This document shows positions 58,642-64,000 of a stretch of 64,000 nt of DNA, piece by piece; position 1 is the stretch's first letter; the number at the start of each line of letters is the position of its first letter. Where the stretch lies: positions 22,349 through 86,348 of the IMG/VR virus record IMGVR_UViG_3300047554_000447; one strand, 5' to 3'. This stretch comes from a virus. The notes under the pieces were generated by a model. The model saw only the letters and a program-made list of their open reading frames with translations, ran no database searches and had not been told where the DNA came from. A program made the position numbers and the translations under genes.

Positions 58642-59072
58642 AAATTATAGAAATAATTTCAGAGAGCGTTGAACTCGATGAAAGAAAAAAGAAAAAACGT
58701 AAAAAAGTAAAGTCTGCGGCCTATGGTCCAGGACCTTACGGTATGTACGGAACTGCTGTAGGTTACAGCGGAGAAGGTGGTGATGGTGGCGGAGTTGGCG
58801 AGGGATTAGAAGAACATAAGAAAGGTGTTCGTGCAAGAATCTATAATAAAAAACCAAAGGCATATATCGAACCACCGAAAACTCCAAAAGTTGAAGAAAA
58901 CTTTGCGGATGGAAAAAATCCGCAGGATAAAGGTGACAGTAAGCGTCACGGAATACCAAAGGGTGCTAGTATATCACAGCTTAAAAAGATAAGAAGCAGT
59001 GACTCTGCCAGTCCACGCAAGAAACAGCTTGCACACTGGCAAATTAACATGAGACAAGGAAAACAAAAATGA
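58638..59072 (+). CDS. modular basic hypothetical (putative internal head) protein
   Basis: MKIIEIISE; modules separated by LDE, LEE, VEE. Confidence 0.65.
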   Translation: MKIIEIISESVELDERKKKKRKKVKSAAYGPGPYGMYGTAVGYSGEGGDGGGVGEGLEEHKKGVRARIYNKKPKAYIEPPKTPKVEENFADGKNPQDKGDSKRHGIPKGASISQLKKIRSSDSASPRKKQLAHWQINMRQGKQK

Positions 59073-59701
59073 GCTTTGAATTTGATTTCACTTTAGACAA
59101 ATTAACAGAATGTGTTCATAAGAACAAAGAACCAGAACTATGGTACAACGCTCTTTGTGAGTATCTACCACAGTTTCAAATTACGACTCCTGCTAGAGTA
59201 GCAGGATTTATCGCACAATGCCAACACGAAAGTTTAGATTTTACATTCCTACAAGAAAATTTAAATTATAGTGCCAAAGGCTTAATGGGAATTTTTAAAA
59301 AGTATTTCCCTACAGAGGATATAGCTAATGCTTATGCTCGTAAACCTCAAATGATTGCTAATCGTGTTTATTCGAGTCGTATGGGCAACGGAGACGAAGC
59401 CAGCGGCGACGGTTGGAGATTTAGAGGCAGAGGCATTCTTCAAATCACAGGAAGATCAAATTATACACAGTGTTCGAGAGATCTATTTCAAGATGATACA
59501 CTTGTAAACGATCCTGATCTGCTAAGAACACCAGAATACGCTGTATTAACAGCCTGTTGGTTCTGGCACAAGAACGGATTAAATCAGATCTGTGACAAGG
59601 GCGATATTGTATTATTAAGTAAACGCATCAACGGCGGTACTATCGGTTTAGAAGATCGTATTGCACATTGGAACATTGCCCTGGACTTATTTGAGGCTTA
59701 A
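59069..59701 (+). CDS. GH19 chitinase-like endolysin
   Basis: FIAQ..HES, ENLNYS, FRGRG.LQITG..NY, RINGG..GL.DR. Confidence 0.92.
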   Translation: MSFEFDFTLDKLTECVHKNKEPELWYNALCEYLPQFQITTPARVAGFIAQCQHESLDFTFLQENLNYSAKGLMGIFKKYFPTEDIANAYARKPQMIANRVYSSRMGNGDEASGDGWRFRGRGILQITGRSNYTQCSRDLFQDDTLVNDPDLLRTPEYAVLTACWFWHKNGLNQICDKGDIVLLSKRINGGTIGLEDRIAHWNIALDLFEA

Positions 59702-61134: not shown

Positions 61135-61938
61135 ATGGACATGAAAAAAATTCTACAGGCTTTTGATGGTGCGTCTTCATCTAAGACGCCCGAAGGCTCT
61201 AATGACATGAAAAAATTCATGCAGATTGTAGAGGGCACGGGCCCTCTTAATCGTTTAACTGCCGCAGAATCAATGGCTGTACAACATTTTCAGCAAGAAA
61301 AAACAATTACACCTCCTGTATTGAATGTTGCTAAAGATGCTAAACCCAGCATGGTTGGCAAATATTTCAAAGCTATTGAACAAGAACTAGCAGAAGCTGA
61401 GCAACGATTTAATGATCAAAAATCCGTTCGTGCTAAAAAATTAGCAGAACGTGTTATTGAACGTGTAGTACCCGGACAAGAAACACCTCCAGGTATTAAT
61501 AGATTAACCGGTAAACCAATTGAGCCACAAGCACCAGCACAACCAGCACCTGCACCTGCTGCCGGTCCTAGAGGTAGCAATTTAAAATATAGTGTGCTTA
61601 AACAATTACAAGCTGGAACTTACAAAGGATTCGCTCCTAGATTAAGTCCAGAGGAATTAGATGCGGCTATCCAATGGAAAGAAGCCAACGGAGAAACTAA
61701 CGAAAGTATTAACGAAGCTGATGCTATTGATACAGTAAAGTTAGATGTTCCTTTATTATTAAGAGTAATGGAATATGCTAAAGAAGATGCTCAGGACGAT
61801 ATGGCTCTCCATGATGTTGCACAAAAATTAATTGAATTGAGTAAAGAGAACGATGTATTAACTATGGATCACTATGATGCTATAGTCGGCGATCAAGAAT
61901 TATTACCAGCACCAGATGCTGACAAGGACACACCTTAG
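61135..61938 (+). CDS. modular hypothetical (putative internal head) protein
   Basis: MDMKKIL; C-terminal D.VKLDVPLLLR.MEYAKEDA..DM.LH module after INE|A. Confidence 0.7.
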   Translation: MDMKKILQAFDGASSSKTPEGSNDMKKFMQIVEGTGPLNRLTAAESMAVQHFQQEKTITPPVLNVAKDAKPSMVGKYFKAIEQELAEAEQRFNDQKSVRAKKLAERVIERVVPGQETPPGINRLTGKPIEPQAPAQPAPAPAAGPRGSNLKYSVLKQLQAGTYKGFAPRLSPEELDAAIQWKEANGETNESINEADAIDTVKLDVPLLLRVMEYAKEDAQDDMALHDVAQKLIELSKENDVLTMDHYDAIVGDQELLPAPDADKDTP

Positions 61939-62022
61939 GACCGGTATTAAGTTACCGAAAGTGTGCGCCGGCTGCTGGCGCGAAGAAAACGATTCGCTAC
62001 CGTAGACTTCGAAAGTGAGCAC
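61929..62022 (+). ncRNA. candidate structured RNA (three stems plus pseudoknot)
   Basis: CACAC/GTGTG + CGGTA/TACCG; GCGCCG/TGGCGC; CGAAG/CTTCG + ACG/CGT; loop TTCGCT complementary to AGTGAG. Confidence 0.6.
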
Positions 62023-62042
62023 GAATTTCGGGGAAGAAAAAC

Positions 62043-62942
62043 ATGGACTTAAAATCATTAATGCAAAAGTTAGAAACACTAGATAAAAAACAAGTTCTAA
62101 CTGAATCAGTACAAGAGCAAACTGAGATGATCAACGAAACTGTTTCAACAGAAACAAAAAAAGTTACCTCAGTTGAAGAAACATTTAGTAGTGCTATTGC
62201 ACAGGCTTTATTAAAAGAATTTGGTTACAGTAACGACGAAGTTACAGAAGCAGATGATTTTAAGTTTAGTCCAGAACAAGAAAAATGGTTAGGTGGTGCT
62301 AATCGCCAAGACCCTTACATTATTGCAAGAATGCCCGGTCCTAAGCCTCCATTAACATATTTTAAAGATCCCGAAGATCAAGCTATTGCCAAACAAATGA
62401 ATATTGGCCAAGGTAACATGAACGCTATCAAAGGCGCTCTAGGAATGCAAAAAGGTGATGATCAAGTATATTCTGATCCAACTACTGCTAAACCAGCTAG
62501 CGGTCAAGCCGCACAGCCAGCTACCCCACAAGCAACTGATCAACGTGTAAATCCAGATAGTCAGCAAGGTCAAATGTTAGCAAAGCAGACTATGGGCATG
62601 GATGAGCCACAATCGGGTGTAGCAGGTGTCCAAGGTGGTAGCGAACAAGATCGTCAACTTGCCGCACAGACAGCAGGTATGGATGCTCCAGAAAAAGGAC
62701 AAGCCGCACAGCCAGCAACACCAGCAGATCAAGGAACTATTGATCCAGCTAAGGTAGCAAGATTTAAAGCATTACTAGCTAAAGCTAGCGGAGGACAGGC
62801 CGCACAACCGGCAGCTGGTGGTAAAGGTGTTACACCCCCTACTAAACCGGCAGCTCCTGGAATGGGAGGCGGTACAGGCATAACTCCTAATGCAAACACT
62901 ACAGTTACTGGTGCTCCAATAAATCCGCAAGCTAGAAAATAA
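62043..62942 (+). CDS. Gln/Ala/Pro-rich hypothetical (putative internal head) protein
   Basis: MDLKSLMQKLE; VTE|A; GQAAQPA repeats. Confidence 0.7.
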   Translation: MDLKSLMQKLETLDKKQVLTESVQEQTEMINETVSTETKKVTSVEETFSSAIAQALLKEFGYSNDEVTEADDFKFSPEQEKWLGGANRQDPYIIARMPGPKPPLTYFKDPEDQAIAKQMNIGQGNMNAIKGALGMQKGDDQVYSDPTTAKPASGQAAQPATPQATDQRVNPDSQQGQMLAKQTMGMDEPQSGVAGVQGGSEQDRQLAAQTAGMDAPEKGQAAQPATPADQGTIDPAKVARFKALLAKASGGQAAQPAAGGKGVTPPTKPAAPGMGGGTGITPNANTTVTGAPINPQARK

Positions 62943-62951
62943 GGAAAAATC

Positions 62952-63938
62952 ATGAAAGATATTATTTTAGAATCATTAAACAAAATTCGAGAAATTGAAT
63001 CTCGTCAGATTATTTCCGAAGCACTAACCCCCGAAGAACAAAAAGAATTAGATGCTCTAGCAAAAGAACTAGAACCACACATGGGTCGTTCTCCTGAAGT
63101 TGATGCGCTATTGTTACAACATCAAAAAGTAGCCAGTGGCGGCCAGGCTGCACAACCAGCTAAAGCAGGAACTCCTGCAATGGATCCCGAAAAGCTAAAA
63201 GCATATCAAACAAAATTAGGTGTCACAGCCGATGGTAAAATGGGTCCTGAAACTAAGGCCGCTATTCAAAAGTTCCAAAAAGACAACGGACTAGCAGTCG
63301 ACGGAATCATCGGACCACAAACTAGCGCGGCTTTAGATAAGCAACCGGCAGCTGGTCAAGCCGCACAGCCAGCCGCTGGTGCAAAAGGTCCAGATGCAAT
63401 TCCAGCAACTGCTGACAAGAAAAAGCCTTATTGGGTAGGCGGTACACGTTACGAGTGGAAAACAACAGGCGGGGGTCGTGGACAACCTGCTACTGGTAGC
63501 TGGCAAGTTACTGCAACGCCAGATGATAAGCTTCAGTGGAACGCTACTAGGGCGAGATCGTCTAGTGGATTTACAGGAGCAGATGACGAGTTTCAAGGTA
63601 CTCAAACAGCAAAAGCACCTGCCGCTCAACCAGCAGGTCAAACCGCTCAACCAGCAGGTCAAGCCGCACAACCAGCTCAGAGCGCACCAGCAGGAACTAA
63701 GACAACTTCCAGCACTCAAGTATCTGGTACATTGAAAATGGGTAAACCGGAAGGGCCAATCCAGTATAACGGAAAAACTGTAAATCCTGGAGATCCAGAT
63801 TATGCGGCCGCAAGTCAAGCATTAATTCAATCTCAACAGAAAGCACAGCAGTCTAGGAGCGATTGGAAATCTAAATCTACTGCATCAACGGCGCCAGTAC
63901 AACAAGGCGCTACAAACGCAGATAGAAGAGATATGTAA
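62952..63938 (+). CDS. peptidoglycan-binding (PG_binding_1) domain protein
   Basis: Q.KLG...DG.MGPET.AAI..FQ..NGL.VDGIIGPQT; GQAAQPA repeats; AAGGA SD. Confidence 0.8.
   Translation: MKDIILESLNKIREIESRQIISEALTPEEQKELDALAKELEPHMGRSPEVDALLLQHQKVASGGQAAQPAKAGTPAMDPEKLKAYQTKLGVTADGKMGPETKAAIQKFQKDNGLAVDGIIGPQTSAALDKQPAAGQAAQPAAGAKGPDAIPATADKKKPYWVGGTRYEWKTTGGGRGQPATGSWQVTATPDDKLQWNATRARSSSGFTGADDEFQGTQTAKAPAAQPAGQTAQPAGQAAQPAQSAPAGTKTTSSTQVSGTLKMGKPEGPIQYNGKTVNPGDPDYAAASQALIQSQQKAQQSRSDWKSKSTASTAPVQQGATNADRRDM
63622..63676 (+). repeat. 21-bp coding tandem repeat (AQPAGQ(T/A))
   Basis: CCGCTCAACCAGCAGGTCAA(A/G) repeated about 2.6 times. Confidence 0.75.
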
Positions 63939-63940
63939 AG

Positions 63941-63966
63941 AAAAACCACCCTAGGGTGGTTTTTTT
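63941..63966. terminator. bidirectional intrinsic terminator
   Basis: AAAAACCACC-CTAG-GGTGGTTTTTTT. Confidence 0.88.
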
Positions 63967-64000
63967 AATGCCAGTTACCTTGGAAACAATGTCTAACTTC
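63965..64000 (-). CDS. 3' end of a convergent gene (…EVRHCFQGNWH*)
   Basis: open minus-strand frame ending at TAA next to the bidirectional terminator. Confidence 0.4.
   Translation of the reverse strand, partial: EVRHCFQGNWH

What the first reader, a model, noticed from the sequence alone, without database searches (positions are those of the whole stretch)
61929..62022. Unrecognised multi-stem, pseudoknot-capable RNA between two internal-protein genes
Seen: a GC-rich 104-nt gap in an otherwise gap-free, AT-rich operon. It folds into P1 CACAC(61929-33)/GUGUG(61961-65), with an internal loop CUUAGGAC/AAA closing P1b CGGUA/UACCG. P2 is GCGCCG/UGGCGC with loop GCUGC. P3 is CGAAG/CUUCG plus ACG/CGU with loop AUUCGCUAC, whose UUCGCU can pair with downstream AGUGAG(62014-19) as an H-type pseudoknot. 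There is no U-tract, so it is not a terminator, and it includes the upstream gene's rare UAG stop. I do not recognise it as a known family. Inference: a novel riboswitch, ribozyme/processing element or packaged ncRNA linked to the downstream GQAAQPA/PG-binding genes.
Basis: partly seen in the sequence, partly recalled or inferred. Interest (0 to 1): 0.78.

Follow-up and report, generated by a model that had tools for sequence, protein, structure and literature searches.

The report
Phage RNA antisense to 23S rRNA
The 104-base gap holds one copy of a small folded RNA that hundreds of uncultured lake phages and a few lab-grown Vibrio phages share, that is in no RNA catalogue, and whose most conserved exposed bases are the exact complement of a universally conserved part of the bacterial large ribosomal RNA.

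Summary
On this one sequence they fold no better than shuffles (z -0.24). On 96 model-aligned copies, 20 of 21 base pairs show compensatory changes.

The pseudoknot exists, but it joins the P2 loop (GCUGCU) to the 3' tail (AGUGAGC).

Rfam 15 has no matching family, and four literature searches found nothing. The flanking genes differ between phages, so the element is not tied to the downstream GQAAQPA/PG-binding genes.

The element starts at, or within 25 nt after, the stop codon of whatever gene precedes it. Some variants have their own TAAATA promoter box and an intrinsic terminator, so it behaves as a small RNA gene.

Its invariant single-stranded stretch (ACCUUAGGACCG) is perfectly complementary to E. 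coli 23S rRNA 1920-1931, and the P3 loop to 1929-1937. Five cultured Vibrio phages carry a relative with 22 of 24 bases antisense to 1907-1930.

Best reading, at about 50%: a phage RNA that pairs with the helix 69 region of 23S rRNA. This is untested.

This scan had already met the family on at least 24 other genomes.

The parts
61135..61938 (+). Upstream ORF (267 aa, no Pfam or PHROG family). Its stop codon is the UAG inside the conserved CCUUAGGACC.
   Evidence: Among 102 distinct homologues, 17 upstream genes likewise stop at this UAG.
61923..61928 (+). A-rich 5' lead (AAGGAC here, AAGAAC in most members). In most other phages it holds the upstream gene's TAA or TAG stop.
   Evidence: Column counts. 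Stop positions.
61929..61933 (+). P1, 5' strand (CACAC), pairing with 61961-61965.
   Evidence: Own-partner helices are longer than partner-shuffled ones: 5.12 against 4.33 +/- 0.06. All 5 P1 pairs are compensatory on A5.
61932..61943 (+). J1, the family's invariant single-stranded stretch ACCUUAGGACCG. It is a perfect complement of E. coli 23S rRNA 1920-1931.
   Evidence: In a sample anchored elsewhere, 50 of 53 copies keep CCUUAGGACC within one mismatch. Contiguous 23S complementarity is 11-16 nt in 128 of 130 members.
61942..61957 (+). P1b hairpin (CGGUA with UACCG, loop UUAAGU). It is an optional arm and is absent in short members.
   Evidence: 98.5% paired, 3 of 5 pairs compensatory. 24 of 130 members have no room for it.
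61961..61965 (+). P1, 3' strand (GUGUG).
61966..61980 (+). P2 hairpin: stem CGCC with GGCG, loop GGCUGCU (61970-61976). CGGCUGCUGGC (61969-61979) is also complementary to E. coli 16S 517-527.
   Evidence: The stem is 99.6% paired with 3 of 4 pairs compensatory on 130 sequences.
61981..62011 (+). P3: outer stem CGAAG with CUUCG, inner stem ACG with CGU, loop AUUCGCUAC (61992-62000). UUCGCUACC (61993-62001) is complementary to E. coli 23S 1929-1937.
   Evidence: This loop sequence marks one subclass only: 15 of 53 in the sample anchored elsewhere.
62012..62021 (+). 3' tail AAAGUGAGCA. 62014-62020 pair with P2 loop 61971-61976 to form the pseudoknot, with G62017 bulged.
   Evidence: 97.8% paired, 2 of 6 pairs compensatory. 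An invariant G-U at one pair (118 of 127) fixes the + strand.
62022..62042 (+). Spacer with a purine-rich ribosome-binding stretch before the next gene. It has no U-tract and no TAAATA box in this copy.
   Evidence: The only strain differences seen near the element lie here: C>T at 62029 and 2 nt missing at 62041.
62043..62942 (+). Downstream ORF (299 aa, GQAAQPA repeats, no family). It is a neighbour in this lineage only.

Best explanation
The gap encodes one copy of an undescribed, roughly 95-nt pseudoknotted small RNA found in large tailed phages.

Shown: the fold. P1 encloses an internal loop (J1) and an optional arm (P1b). P2 has a loop that pairs with the 3' tail. P3 follows.

Shown: the RNA lies on the + strand and begins at the stop codon of whatever gene precedes it.

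Shown: J1 (ACCUUAGGACCG), and in this subclass the P3 loop (UUCGCUACC), are exact antisense to adjoining stretches of 23S rRNA (E. coli 1920-1931 and 1929-1937). This is the 3' strand of helix 69 and the joint towards helix 70/71 (helix boundaries recalled).

Inferred: the RNA is transcribed as the trailer of the upstream gene, or in some relatives from its own late-type promoter. The helices serve as a scaffold that displays J1. J1 pairs with 23S rRNA that is free or not yet folded, in free 50S subunits or assembly intermediates. In this way the phage acts on host ribosomes (subunit joining, recycling or assembly) late in infection.
For: Real and conserved:
- Relatives L002, L017 and L003 keep a roughly 100-nt gap at the same place, 73-77% identical. 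In L002 and L017 the upstream gene stops before the conserved block, so the conservation is non-coding.
They gave 130 distinct members.

Structure:
- The P2 stem is 99.6% paired and the pseudoknot 97.8% paired, with 11 double changes at one pair.
- On the 27-sequence MAFFT seed, 19 of 28 pairs are compensatory. 89.8% of cells are paired, against 73.8% when shuffled and 32-43% when slid.
- On 96 model-aligned copies, 20 of 21 pairs are compensatory, with 90.6% paired against 61.4% shuffled (this alignment is fitted to the model).

Strand: G-U pairs are invariant, and 81 of 102 members have a same-strand upstream ORF ending from 25 nt before CUUAGG up to its own UAG.

Small-RNA gene:
- 6 of 15 variant members have a TAAATA box ending exactly 10-11 nt before CUUAGG, and several end in a hairpin plus U-run.
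- In the main class a run of four or more T follows the tail in 40 of 130 (background 5.5%).

Copy number: one copy in the 86-kb record and one per locus in 96 of 100 loci.

rRNA complementarity:
- Exact 12-nt and 9-nt antisense matches to adjoining 23S sites.
- 11-16 nt contiguous in 128 of 130 members. Subfamilies extend the match in register in either direction: CUACC on the 5' side in 48, and up to 7 further bases on the 3' side.
- J1 is kept within one mismatch in 50 of 53 copies found with an anchor that did not include it.
- The 24-nt 23S target is identical to E. coli's in 19 of 41 genomes of another phylum, at all 23 places with 0 mismatches.
- Five cultured Vibrio phages carry an architectural relative with 22 of 24 bases antisense to 23S 1907-1930. 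By my reading of the sequences, both differences are wobble-compatible. They also carry UCGCUACC.

Accessibility: a review reports that MazF-mt6 cuts the adjoining helix/loop 70 in 50S subunits but not in 70S ribosomes, so this neighbourhood is reachable in free subunits (passages read).
Against: - There are no expression data. No RNA run holds this phage.
- Pairing with rRNA is inferred from sequence alone.
- In mature ribosomes 1919-1924 lie in the helix 69 stem (recalled), so J1 would have to invade a helix or act before folding.
- The two antisense segments overlap on the same GGU and stand in permuted order, which is awkward for a simple duplex.
- The P3-loop match holds for one subclass only. 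In the sample anchored on P2 and the tail, 31 of 53 copies have GAGUCGUGCC instead and 4 lack the inner hairpin.
- In about nine variant members CCUUAGG is paired in cis with a downstream CCUAAGG. J1 can therefore be structural or masked.
- J1 variants at its last two bases (AC in 9, CG in 8) would mismatch 23S.
- Both retrieval patterns were built from conserved motifs, so conservation of the anchored bases is partly by construction.
- The 16S match (9-11 nt) could be chance, and that loop is occupied by the pseudoknot.
- Earlier agents of this scan reached the same reading, but that is not independent evidence.
Confidence: 0.5

Rival explanations
1. A structured 3' trailer that acts only in cis on its own transcript. 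It would stabilise the upstream mRNA against 3' exonucleases, mark a processing site, or insulate or terminate transcription between units. On this reading the rRNA complementarity has no function.
For: The element begins at the upstream stop codon in 81 of 102 members. A T-run follows the tail in 40 of 130, and a TAAATA box or TTGAC lies within 45 nt downstream in 32 and 19 of 130, all above background. In variants P3 doubles as an intrinsic terminator.
Against: A stabiliser or terminator needs helices, not an invariant 10-nt single-stranded sequence kept across very different phages. One copy per roughly 350-kb genome is odd for a general transcript-end device. The window copy has no U-tract. 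Chance does not explain antisense matches of 11-16 nt, or 22 of 24 in the Vibrio phages, to one rRNA site.
Confidence: 0.2
2. A cis-acting translational device. After termination at the adjoining stop codon, the element holds the ribosome or its 50S subunit by pairing with rRNA, so that the next ORF is translated. This would work like a TURBS.
For: The element is close to the stop codon. It is complementary to rRNA. In the window, and in some loci, a ribosome-binding site and start codon follow within 16-45 nt.
Against: Promoter-like boxes often lie between the element and the next gene, and the next gene is sometimes on the other strand or far away. There is only one copy per genome. The complementarity is to the large-subunit rRNA, and the element lies after, not before, the stop. 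Some variants are stand-alone genes with promoter and terminator.
Confidence: 0.1
3. A ligand-sensing riboswitch or a self-cleaving ribozyme.
For: It is a compact pseudoknotted fold with highly conserved unpaired bases in junctions and loops. It matches no known family, so a new class cannot be excluded.
Against: No constant downstream gene family exists. The element lies behind a gene rather than in a defined 5' leader. The P3 loop comes in three unrelated versions and P1b is optional, which is unusual for a binding pocket or catalytic core. No ribozyme model scores even at E<=10.
Confidence: 0.07
4. A protein-binding RNA or decoy. The conserved bases would be read by a phage or host protein, for example a factor that handles the helix 69 region, and the likeness to an rRNA antisense would be a by-product. 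A related version is that the opposite strand is made and mimics rRNA.
For: CUACC occurs twice in many members, in J1 and in the P3 loop, as a protein site might. The minus strand folds slightly better than shuffles (z -2.1).
Against: Invariant G-U pairs would be A-C mismatches on the minus strand, and the genes around the element are co-oriented with the + strand. No constant neighbouring protein gene was found. An antisense sequence is not a mimic of the rRNA itself.
Confidence: 0.08
5. A DNA-level element: a shared intergenic cassette that promotes recombination and gene shuffling between phages, like the promoter/stem-loop cassettes of T4-type phages (recalled, not checked in a paper).
For: Nearly identical copies sit between unrelated genes in different phages. 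For example L106 shares the window's P2 and P3 stems, but my crude ORF call shows different neighbours. Many carriers are T4-like, with a family B polymerase nearby.
Against: Compensatory changes that keep RNA helices, G-U pairs included, and a covarying pseudoknot are not expected of a recombination site. One copy per genome gives no partner for intragenomic exchange.
Confidence: 0.03

Closest known systems
Trans-acting base-pairing small RNAs with a structured scaffold and an exposed seed, including 3'-UTR-derived ones such as CpxQ and SroC (recalled, not checked in a paper)
   Same: It is about 100 nt long. It has helices plus a conserved unpaired stretch of 10-16 nt complementary to a target. 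It is made from the end of an mRNA or from its own promoter, and often ends in a hairpin plus U-run.
   Different: The predicted target is ribosomal RNA, not an mRNA. The fold includes a pseudoknot. It is encoded by phages, and no Hfq-type features were examined.
TURBS (termination upstream ribosome-binding site) of caliciviruses and influenza B (recalled)
   Same: It is a viral RNA segment complementary to rRNA that lies next to a stop codon.
   Different: TURBS pairs with small-subunit rRNA, lies upstream of the stop/restart site inside the translated region, and is not a folded pseudoknot module. Here the match is to 23S, the element lies after the stop, and some members are stand-alone genes.
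Ribosome-associated small non-coding RNAs, such as mRNA- or tRNA-derived fragments that bind ribosomal subunits and damp translation (recalled)
   Same: The idea is the same: a small RNA acting directly on the ribosome rather than on a message.
   Different: As I recall them, those are short unstructured fragments with no long Watson-Crick match to rRNA. This is a dedicated, conserved, folded gene product with an exact antisense stretch.
Protein toxins aimed at the same rRNA neighbourhood: MazF-mt6 and MazF-mt3 (helix/loop 70 of 23S, passages read) and Ribocin (helix 69 of eukaryotic ribosomes, listing and abstract start only)
   Same: The target region is the same, helix 69 to 70 at the subunit interface. 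The 50S-but-not-70S accessibility reported for MazF-mt6 fits action on free subunits.
   Different: Those are nucleases. This is an RNA with no sign of catalytic activity.
Promoter/stem-loop intergenic cassettes of T4-type phages (recalled)
   Same: It is a conserved intergenic element in T4-like phages, placed between a gene end and a promoter.
   Different: As I recall, those cassettes occur many times per genome and are simple hairpins. This element occurs once or twice per genome, has four helices and a covarying pseudoknot, and has an invariant unpaired stretch.

Membership tests
Any Rfam 15 family (4227 models) | Score at or above the family's gathering threshold | tested here: not met
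   There are 0 matches on the 64-kb window. At E<=10 on 61880-62080 there are only 4 hits far below threshold; the best is mir-1976 at 19.7 bits against 71. Ten other member loci give only a tRNA elsewhere.
tRNA / tmRNA | Cloverleaf or tmRNA fold recognised by ARAGORN | tested here: not met
   ARAGORN finds 0 genes in the window.
Intrinsic terminator | G+C-rich hairpin directly followed by a U-tract | tested here: not met
   There is no + strand site in 61600-62300, and the tail is followed by CGAAUUUCGGGG. Other members do have one: a run of four or more T follows in 40 of 130, and some variants have hairpin plus U-run ends.
Riboswitch | Lies in the 5' leader of a constant set of regulated genes | tested here: not met
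   Downstream genes differ between loci. A promoter-like box often lies between the element and the next gene.
Riboswitch | Binds a ligand and changes fold | not testable with these tools
   This needs in-line probing or a similar assay.
Self-cleaving ribozymes (hammerhead, twister, twister-sister, pistol, hatchet, HDV-like, hairpin, glmS) | Match to the family's covariance model | tested here: not met
   None is listed even at E<=10.
Self-cleaving ribozymes (new class) | Site-specific self-cleavage | not testable with these tools
   This needs transcription and incubation with Mg2+.
Recoding signal (stop-codon readthrough or frameshift pseudoknot) | Fixed reading-frame relation between the stop or slip site and an extension that is translated | tested here: not met
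   The upstream stop lies 4-18 nt before CUUAGG, or is its own UAG. All three frames are used: 32, 30 and 19 of 81.
Trans-acting base-pairing small RNA | Conserved unpaired seed with a complementary target | tested here: met
   J1 is kept within one mismatch in 50 of 53 copies found with an anchor that did not include it. The antisense match to 23S is 11-16 nt contiguous in 128 of 130.
Trans-acting base-pairing small RNA | Discrete transcript with defined ends | tested here: inconclusive
   A promoter box at fixed spacing occurs in 6 of 15 variants, some with terminators. For the window copy no signals were found and there are no RNA data.
Trans-acting base-pairing small RNA | Pairing with the target shown | not testable with these tools
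   This needs cross-linking, binding or genetics.
TURBS | Motif upstream of the stop/restart site, complementary to small-subunit rRNA | tested here: not met
   The element lies downstream of the stop. Its conserved match is to 23S.
T4-type promoter/stem-loop cassettes (features as recalled) | Many copies per genome flanking variable genes | tested here: not met
   There is one hit in the 86-kb record. Three of four large carrier records have one clear hit each; the complete 353-kb genome has a second, partial one. There is one hit per locus in 96 of 100 loci.

The most novel reading that the evidence does not exclude
Large phages make a dedicated small RNA that invades helix 69 of the host's 23S rRNA in free 50S subunits or assembly intermediates. 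It would act as an RNA anti-association or ribosome-capture factor, giving the virus direct nucleic-acid control over how many host ribosomes can join and translate late in infection. A second, weaker contact with the 16S 530 loop would open when the pseudoknot melts.
Probability: 0.35. Interest if true: 0.92.

Novelty: categorically new. Interest (0 to 1): 0.8.

Why it matters
Phages are known to retool host translation with proteins and tRNAs. I know of no natural RNA that targets ribosomal RNA by antisense pairing, and four full-text searches found none.

If the reading is right, this is a new way for a virus to handle the ribosome. It is aimed at helix 69, the bridge needed for subunit joining, decoding, termination and recycling (recalled).

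It is nearly confined to viral contigs, with 1 hit in 185,579 species genomes. A relative is present in cultured Vibrio phages, so the hypothesis can be tested at the bench now.

Even if the rRNA reading is wrong, this is a widespread, well-supported structured RNA class that is missing from Rfam.

Tried and rejected
Single-sequence folding. It gave no signal on the + strand. The slightly better minus-strand value was set aside because invariant G-U pairs and gene orientation fix the + strand.

RNAalifold on the 130-sequence MAFFT alignment. It found only P2, because the P1 and P3 registers shift between rows. I therefore used partner-shuffle tests, a hand-checked seed and a covariance model.

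Whole-length RNAduplex against E. coli rRNAs. It gave long, loop-ridden duplexes: 23S -86.0 against -76.0 +/- 3.7 with 1 of 100 shuffles as low, and 16S no better than shuffles. I do not use it.

blastn of the window element against cultured phages. It found only a 19-nt chance match. The Vibrio relatives appeared only when the 23S antisense itself was the query. The top 20 rows of that search are host rRNA filed under phage names or bacterial records, and I ignored them.

Expression. No RNA holder is listed. The one run labelled metatranscriptomic laid nothing.

Strain comparison. DNA contigs of two other studies show the element unchanged while the flanks differ at 4-5 places in 1200 nt. That is too few differences to mean anything.

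The 86-aa downstream neighbour. It is seen in 43 loci but has no homologue in the 86-kb record, which is only 24% complete. This is uninformative.

The 16S 530-loop match and a 9-nt match of 5 subclass P3 loops to 16S 337-345. I treat both as possibly chance.

Not done. Supplementary files of papers were not consulted. The metagenome-contig scan was not used. No structure, complex or protein-homology searches were needed.
Full report
WHAT IS THERE

The window is the last 64 kb of an 86,348-bp viral record with 40.1% G+C. CheckV rates the record 24% complete, so it is probably a piece of a very large tailed phage. It carries tail-fibre-like and ATP-dependent-protease-like proteins.

ORF 61135-61938 ends in TAG. 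ORF 62043-62942 follows after 104 nt. TAG is a rare stop here, used by 3 of 87 crude ORFs. There is no + strand terminator-like site.

On its own the sequence is unremarkable:
- The + strand MFE is no better than shuffles (z -0.24), and it is a different fold.
- The comparative fold costs -20.9 kcal/mol, against an MFE of -24.8 for the same 95 nt.
- G+C of 0.51 is matched by nearby coding stretches.
- The element occurs once in the record.

IS IT MORE THAN CHANCE?

Yes, by comparison.

Fifteen loci encode relatives of each flanking protein. Three of them (L002, L017, L003) keep a gap of about 100 nt at the same place, 73-77% identical to the window (nhmmer E 2e-9, 4e-9, 3e-3). In L002 and L017 the upstream gene stops before the conserved block, so the conservation is not coding. 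More distant relatives (L018, L004, L006, L009, L014) have no gap there.

In the loci then held there were 125 matches:
- 111 also carry the extended block;
- one more (L032) is a member by eye;
- 13 look like chance.
This leaves 102 distinct sequences.

Among 101 distinct matches on new loci, 53 have a fully paired P2 stem. Of these, 50 carry CCUUAGGACC within one mismatch upstream (24 exact). The 48 without a stem are 3-6 mismatches away, apart from one exact.

A strict three-block pattern found one place in 185,579 species genomes. That place is a 14.6-kb contig of a metagenome-assembled genome. The family is therefore essentially viral.

STRUCTURE

On 130 distinct members aligned by MAFFT:
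- The P2 stem is 99.6% paired, with double changes at 3 of 4 pairs.
- Six pairs between the P2 loop and the 3' tail are 97.8% paired. They include 11 C-G to G-C swaps at one pair and 3 double changes at another.
It fails exactly where the tail varies.

P1 and the outer P3 stem shift register between rows, so RNAalifold on that alignment saw only P2. Each sequence's own strands nevertheless pair better than strands swapped between sequences:
- P1: 5.12 against 4.33 +/- 0.06;
- outer P3: 5.12 against 3.61 +/- 0.07.

On a 27-sequence seed, 19 of 28 pairs have double changes. 89.8% of cells are paired, against 73.8% in shuffles and 32-43% when slid.

A covariance model built from the seed finds one copy in each of 96 of 100 loci. 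On that alignment, which is fitted to the model, 20 of 21 pairs have double changes (90.6% against 61.4%).

Invariant G-U pairs fix the + strand.

P1b is optional: 24 of 130 members have no room for it. The P3 loop comes in at least three versions. In the sample anchored on P2 and the tail these are GAGUCGUGCC in 31, xUCGCUA in 15, no inner hairpin in 4, and other in 3. The window belongs to the xUCGCUA subclass.

CONTEXT

In 81 of 102 distinct members, a same-strand open frame of at least 60 codons stops somewhere from 25 nt before CUUAGG up to its own UAG. In 17 of them, the window included, the stop is that UAG. All three frames occur, which speaks against readthrough or frameshifting.

Downstream spacing is looser. 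Several signals there are enriched over background:
- a run of four or more T within 12 nt of the tail in 40 of 130 (background 5.5%);
- TAAATA within 45 nt in 32 (background 1.4%);
- TTGAC in 19 (background 5%).

Neighbouring genes vary. An 86-aa protein lies downstream in 43 loci, followed by a family B DNA polymerase in 21. Elsewhere there are dCMP deaminase, ferritin-like, radical SAM and fatty acid desaturase genes. The window's neighbours have no family, except a PG_binding_1 domain two genes on.

Fifteen variant members lack the P2 loop/tail pseudoknot. In 6 of them a TAAATA box ends exactly 10-11 nt before CUUAGG. Several end in a long hairpin that bears the AUUCGCUAC loop and is followed by a U-run. 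These look like stand-alone small RNA genes.

Whole records give these copy numbers:
- a complete 352,754-bp phage with terminal repeats has one full copy (79.9 bits) and one partial copy that keeps only the 3' domain (35.2 bits);
- a 300-kb record has one clear copy and one doubtful hit;
- two further records have one copy each;
- a relative of the window's phage (L004) has none.

THE rRNA COMPLEMENTARITY

After I had established the family, I looked up this scan's own notes. The same family had been met on at least 24 other genomes and read as antisense to 23S rRNA. That lead changed my reading, and I tested it myself.

Against E. coli rrlH and rrsH taken from NC_000913, one search shows three exact complements:
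- window 61932-61943 to 23S 1920-1931;
- window 61993-62001 to 23S 1929-1937;
- window 61969-61979 to 16S 517-527.

Across 130 members, the contiguous match around J1 is 11-16 nt in 128. Subfamilies extend it in register on either side: CUACC on the 5' side in 48, and up to 7 further bases on the 3' side.

The 24-nt 23S target is letter-for-letter the same in 19 of 41 genomes sampled from another phylum. The rest are probably assemblies without rRNA.

I then used the antisense of 23S 1905-1950 as the query against cultured phages. Seven records of five Vibrio phages have a 22 of 24 match to 1907-1930 in unannotated DNA. The five phages are PWH3a-P1, qdvp001, vB_VpaM_R16F, vB_VibM_10AMN and P018-4. 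By my reading of the sequences, both differences would give G-U pairs.

The surrounding 120 nt are 88% identical among the five phages. They show the same layout: an AAGAA lead, CCUUGGGACC, a hairpin whose loop can pair with a 3' AGAGC tail, a UCGCUACC loop, and a U-run. My model scores the PWH3a-P1 copy weakly, at 15.8 bits.

A review states that MazF-mt6 cuts the adjoining helix/loop 70 in 50S subunits but not in 70S ribosomes. This part of the rRNA is therefore reachable in free subunits.

WHAT SPEAKS AGAINST THE rRNA READING

- There is no expression evidence.
- 1919-1924 are helical in mature ribosomes (recalled).
- The two antisense segments overlap on GGU and are in permuted order.
- The P3-loop match is confined to one subclass.
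- In about nine variants CCUUAGG pairs in cis with CCUAAGG, which is the same sequence as the rRNA target. This shows J1 is built to pair with that sequence, but also that it can be masked or merely structural.
- The last two J1 bases vary in ways that would mismatch 23S.
- The 16S match could be chance, and that loop is occupied by the pseudoknot.
- Both retrieval patterns were built on conserved blocks.

VERDICT

It is wrong to tie it to the downstream genes, and it has no support as a riboswitch, ribozyme or packaged RNA.

I am about 97% sure that it is a genuine, widespread, uncatalogued RNA family of large phages. I am about 50% sure that it works by pairing with the helix 69 region of 23S rRNA.

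I found it in no paper: string and topic searches found nothing relevant, and no supplements were seen. It is in no Rfam family. The cultured Vibrio phages make the hypothesis directly testable.

Noticed in passing
window 61969-61979: The apex of P2 (CGGCUGCUGGC) is a perfect complement of E. coli 16S rRNA 517-527, the 530 loop. The 9-nt core is invariant in the main class, but it is occupied by the pseudoknot and absent in variant members, so it may be chance.
   Followed up: partly
L268 (complete 352,754-bp phage record, 76925-77018): A second, partial copy that keeps P2, a GGUCGCUACC loop and the AAGUGAGCA tail but lacks CCUUAGGACC (35.2 bits). I did not check whether it lies inside a gene.
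   Followed up: no
L034, L035, L076, L094, L114, L122, L097, L163, L213: Variant members in which CCUUAGG pairs in cis with a downstream CCUAAGG followed by a conserved GGCGUC. This cis partner has the same sequence as the 23S target, so these may be masked or switchable forms.
   Followed up: partly
L272 and L273 (Vibrio phages vB_VpaM_R16F and vB_VibM_10AMN): In these cultured phages the related element lies about 100 nt from an annotated tRNA gene (tRNA-Met, tRNA-Arg).
   Followed up: no
L259 (contig of a MAG labelled uncultured Lishizhenia sp.): This is the only hit in 185,579 species genomes. The 14.6-kb contig may be a phage contig binned with a bacterium, or a hint at a Bacteroidota host.
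   Followed up: no
window about 63940-63970: A clear intrinsic terminator (AAAAACCACCCUAGGGUGGUUUUUUU) follows the last gene (62952-63938). The run of virion-protein-like genes that contains the element therefore ends there.
   Followed up: no
window 62043-63938: The two downstream proteins share GQAAQPA repeats. The second has a PG_binding_1 domain (E 1e-13), and a glycoside hydrolase 19-type endolysin lies at 59069-59701.
   Followed up: partly
L167, L174, L185 and two more (P3 loop of the GAGUCGUGCC subclass): In five sequences GUAGGAGUC is complementary to E. coli 16S 337-345. At 9 nt, and in few members, this is probably chance.
   Followed up: no
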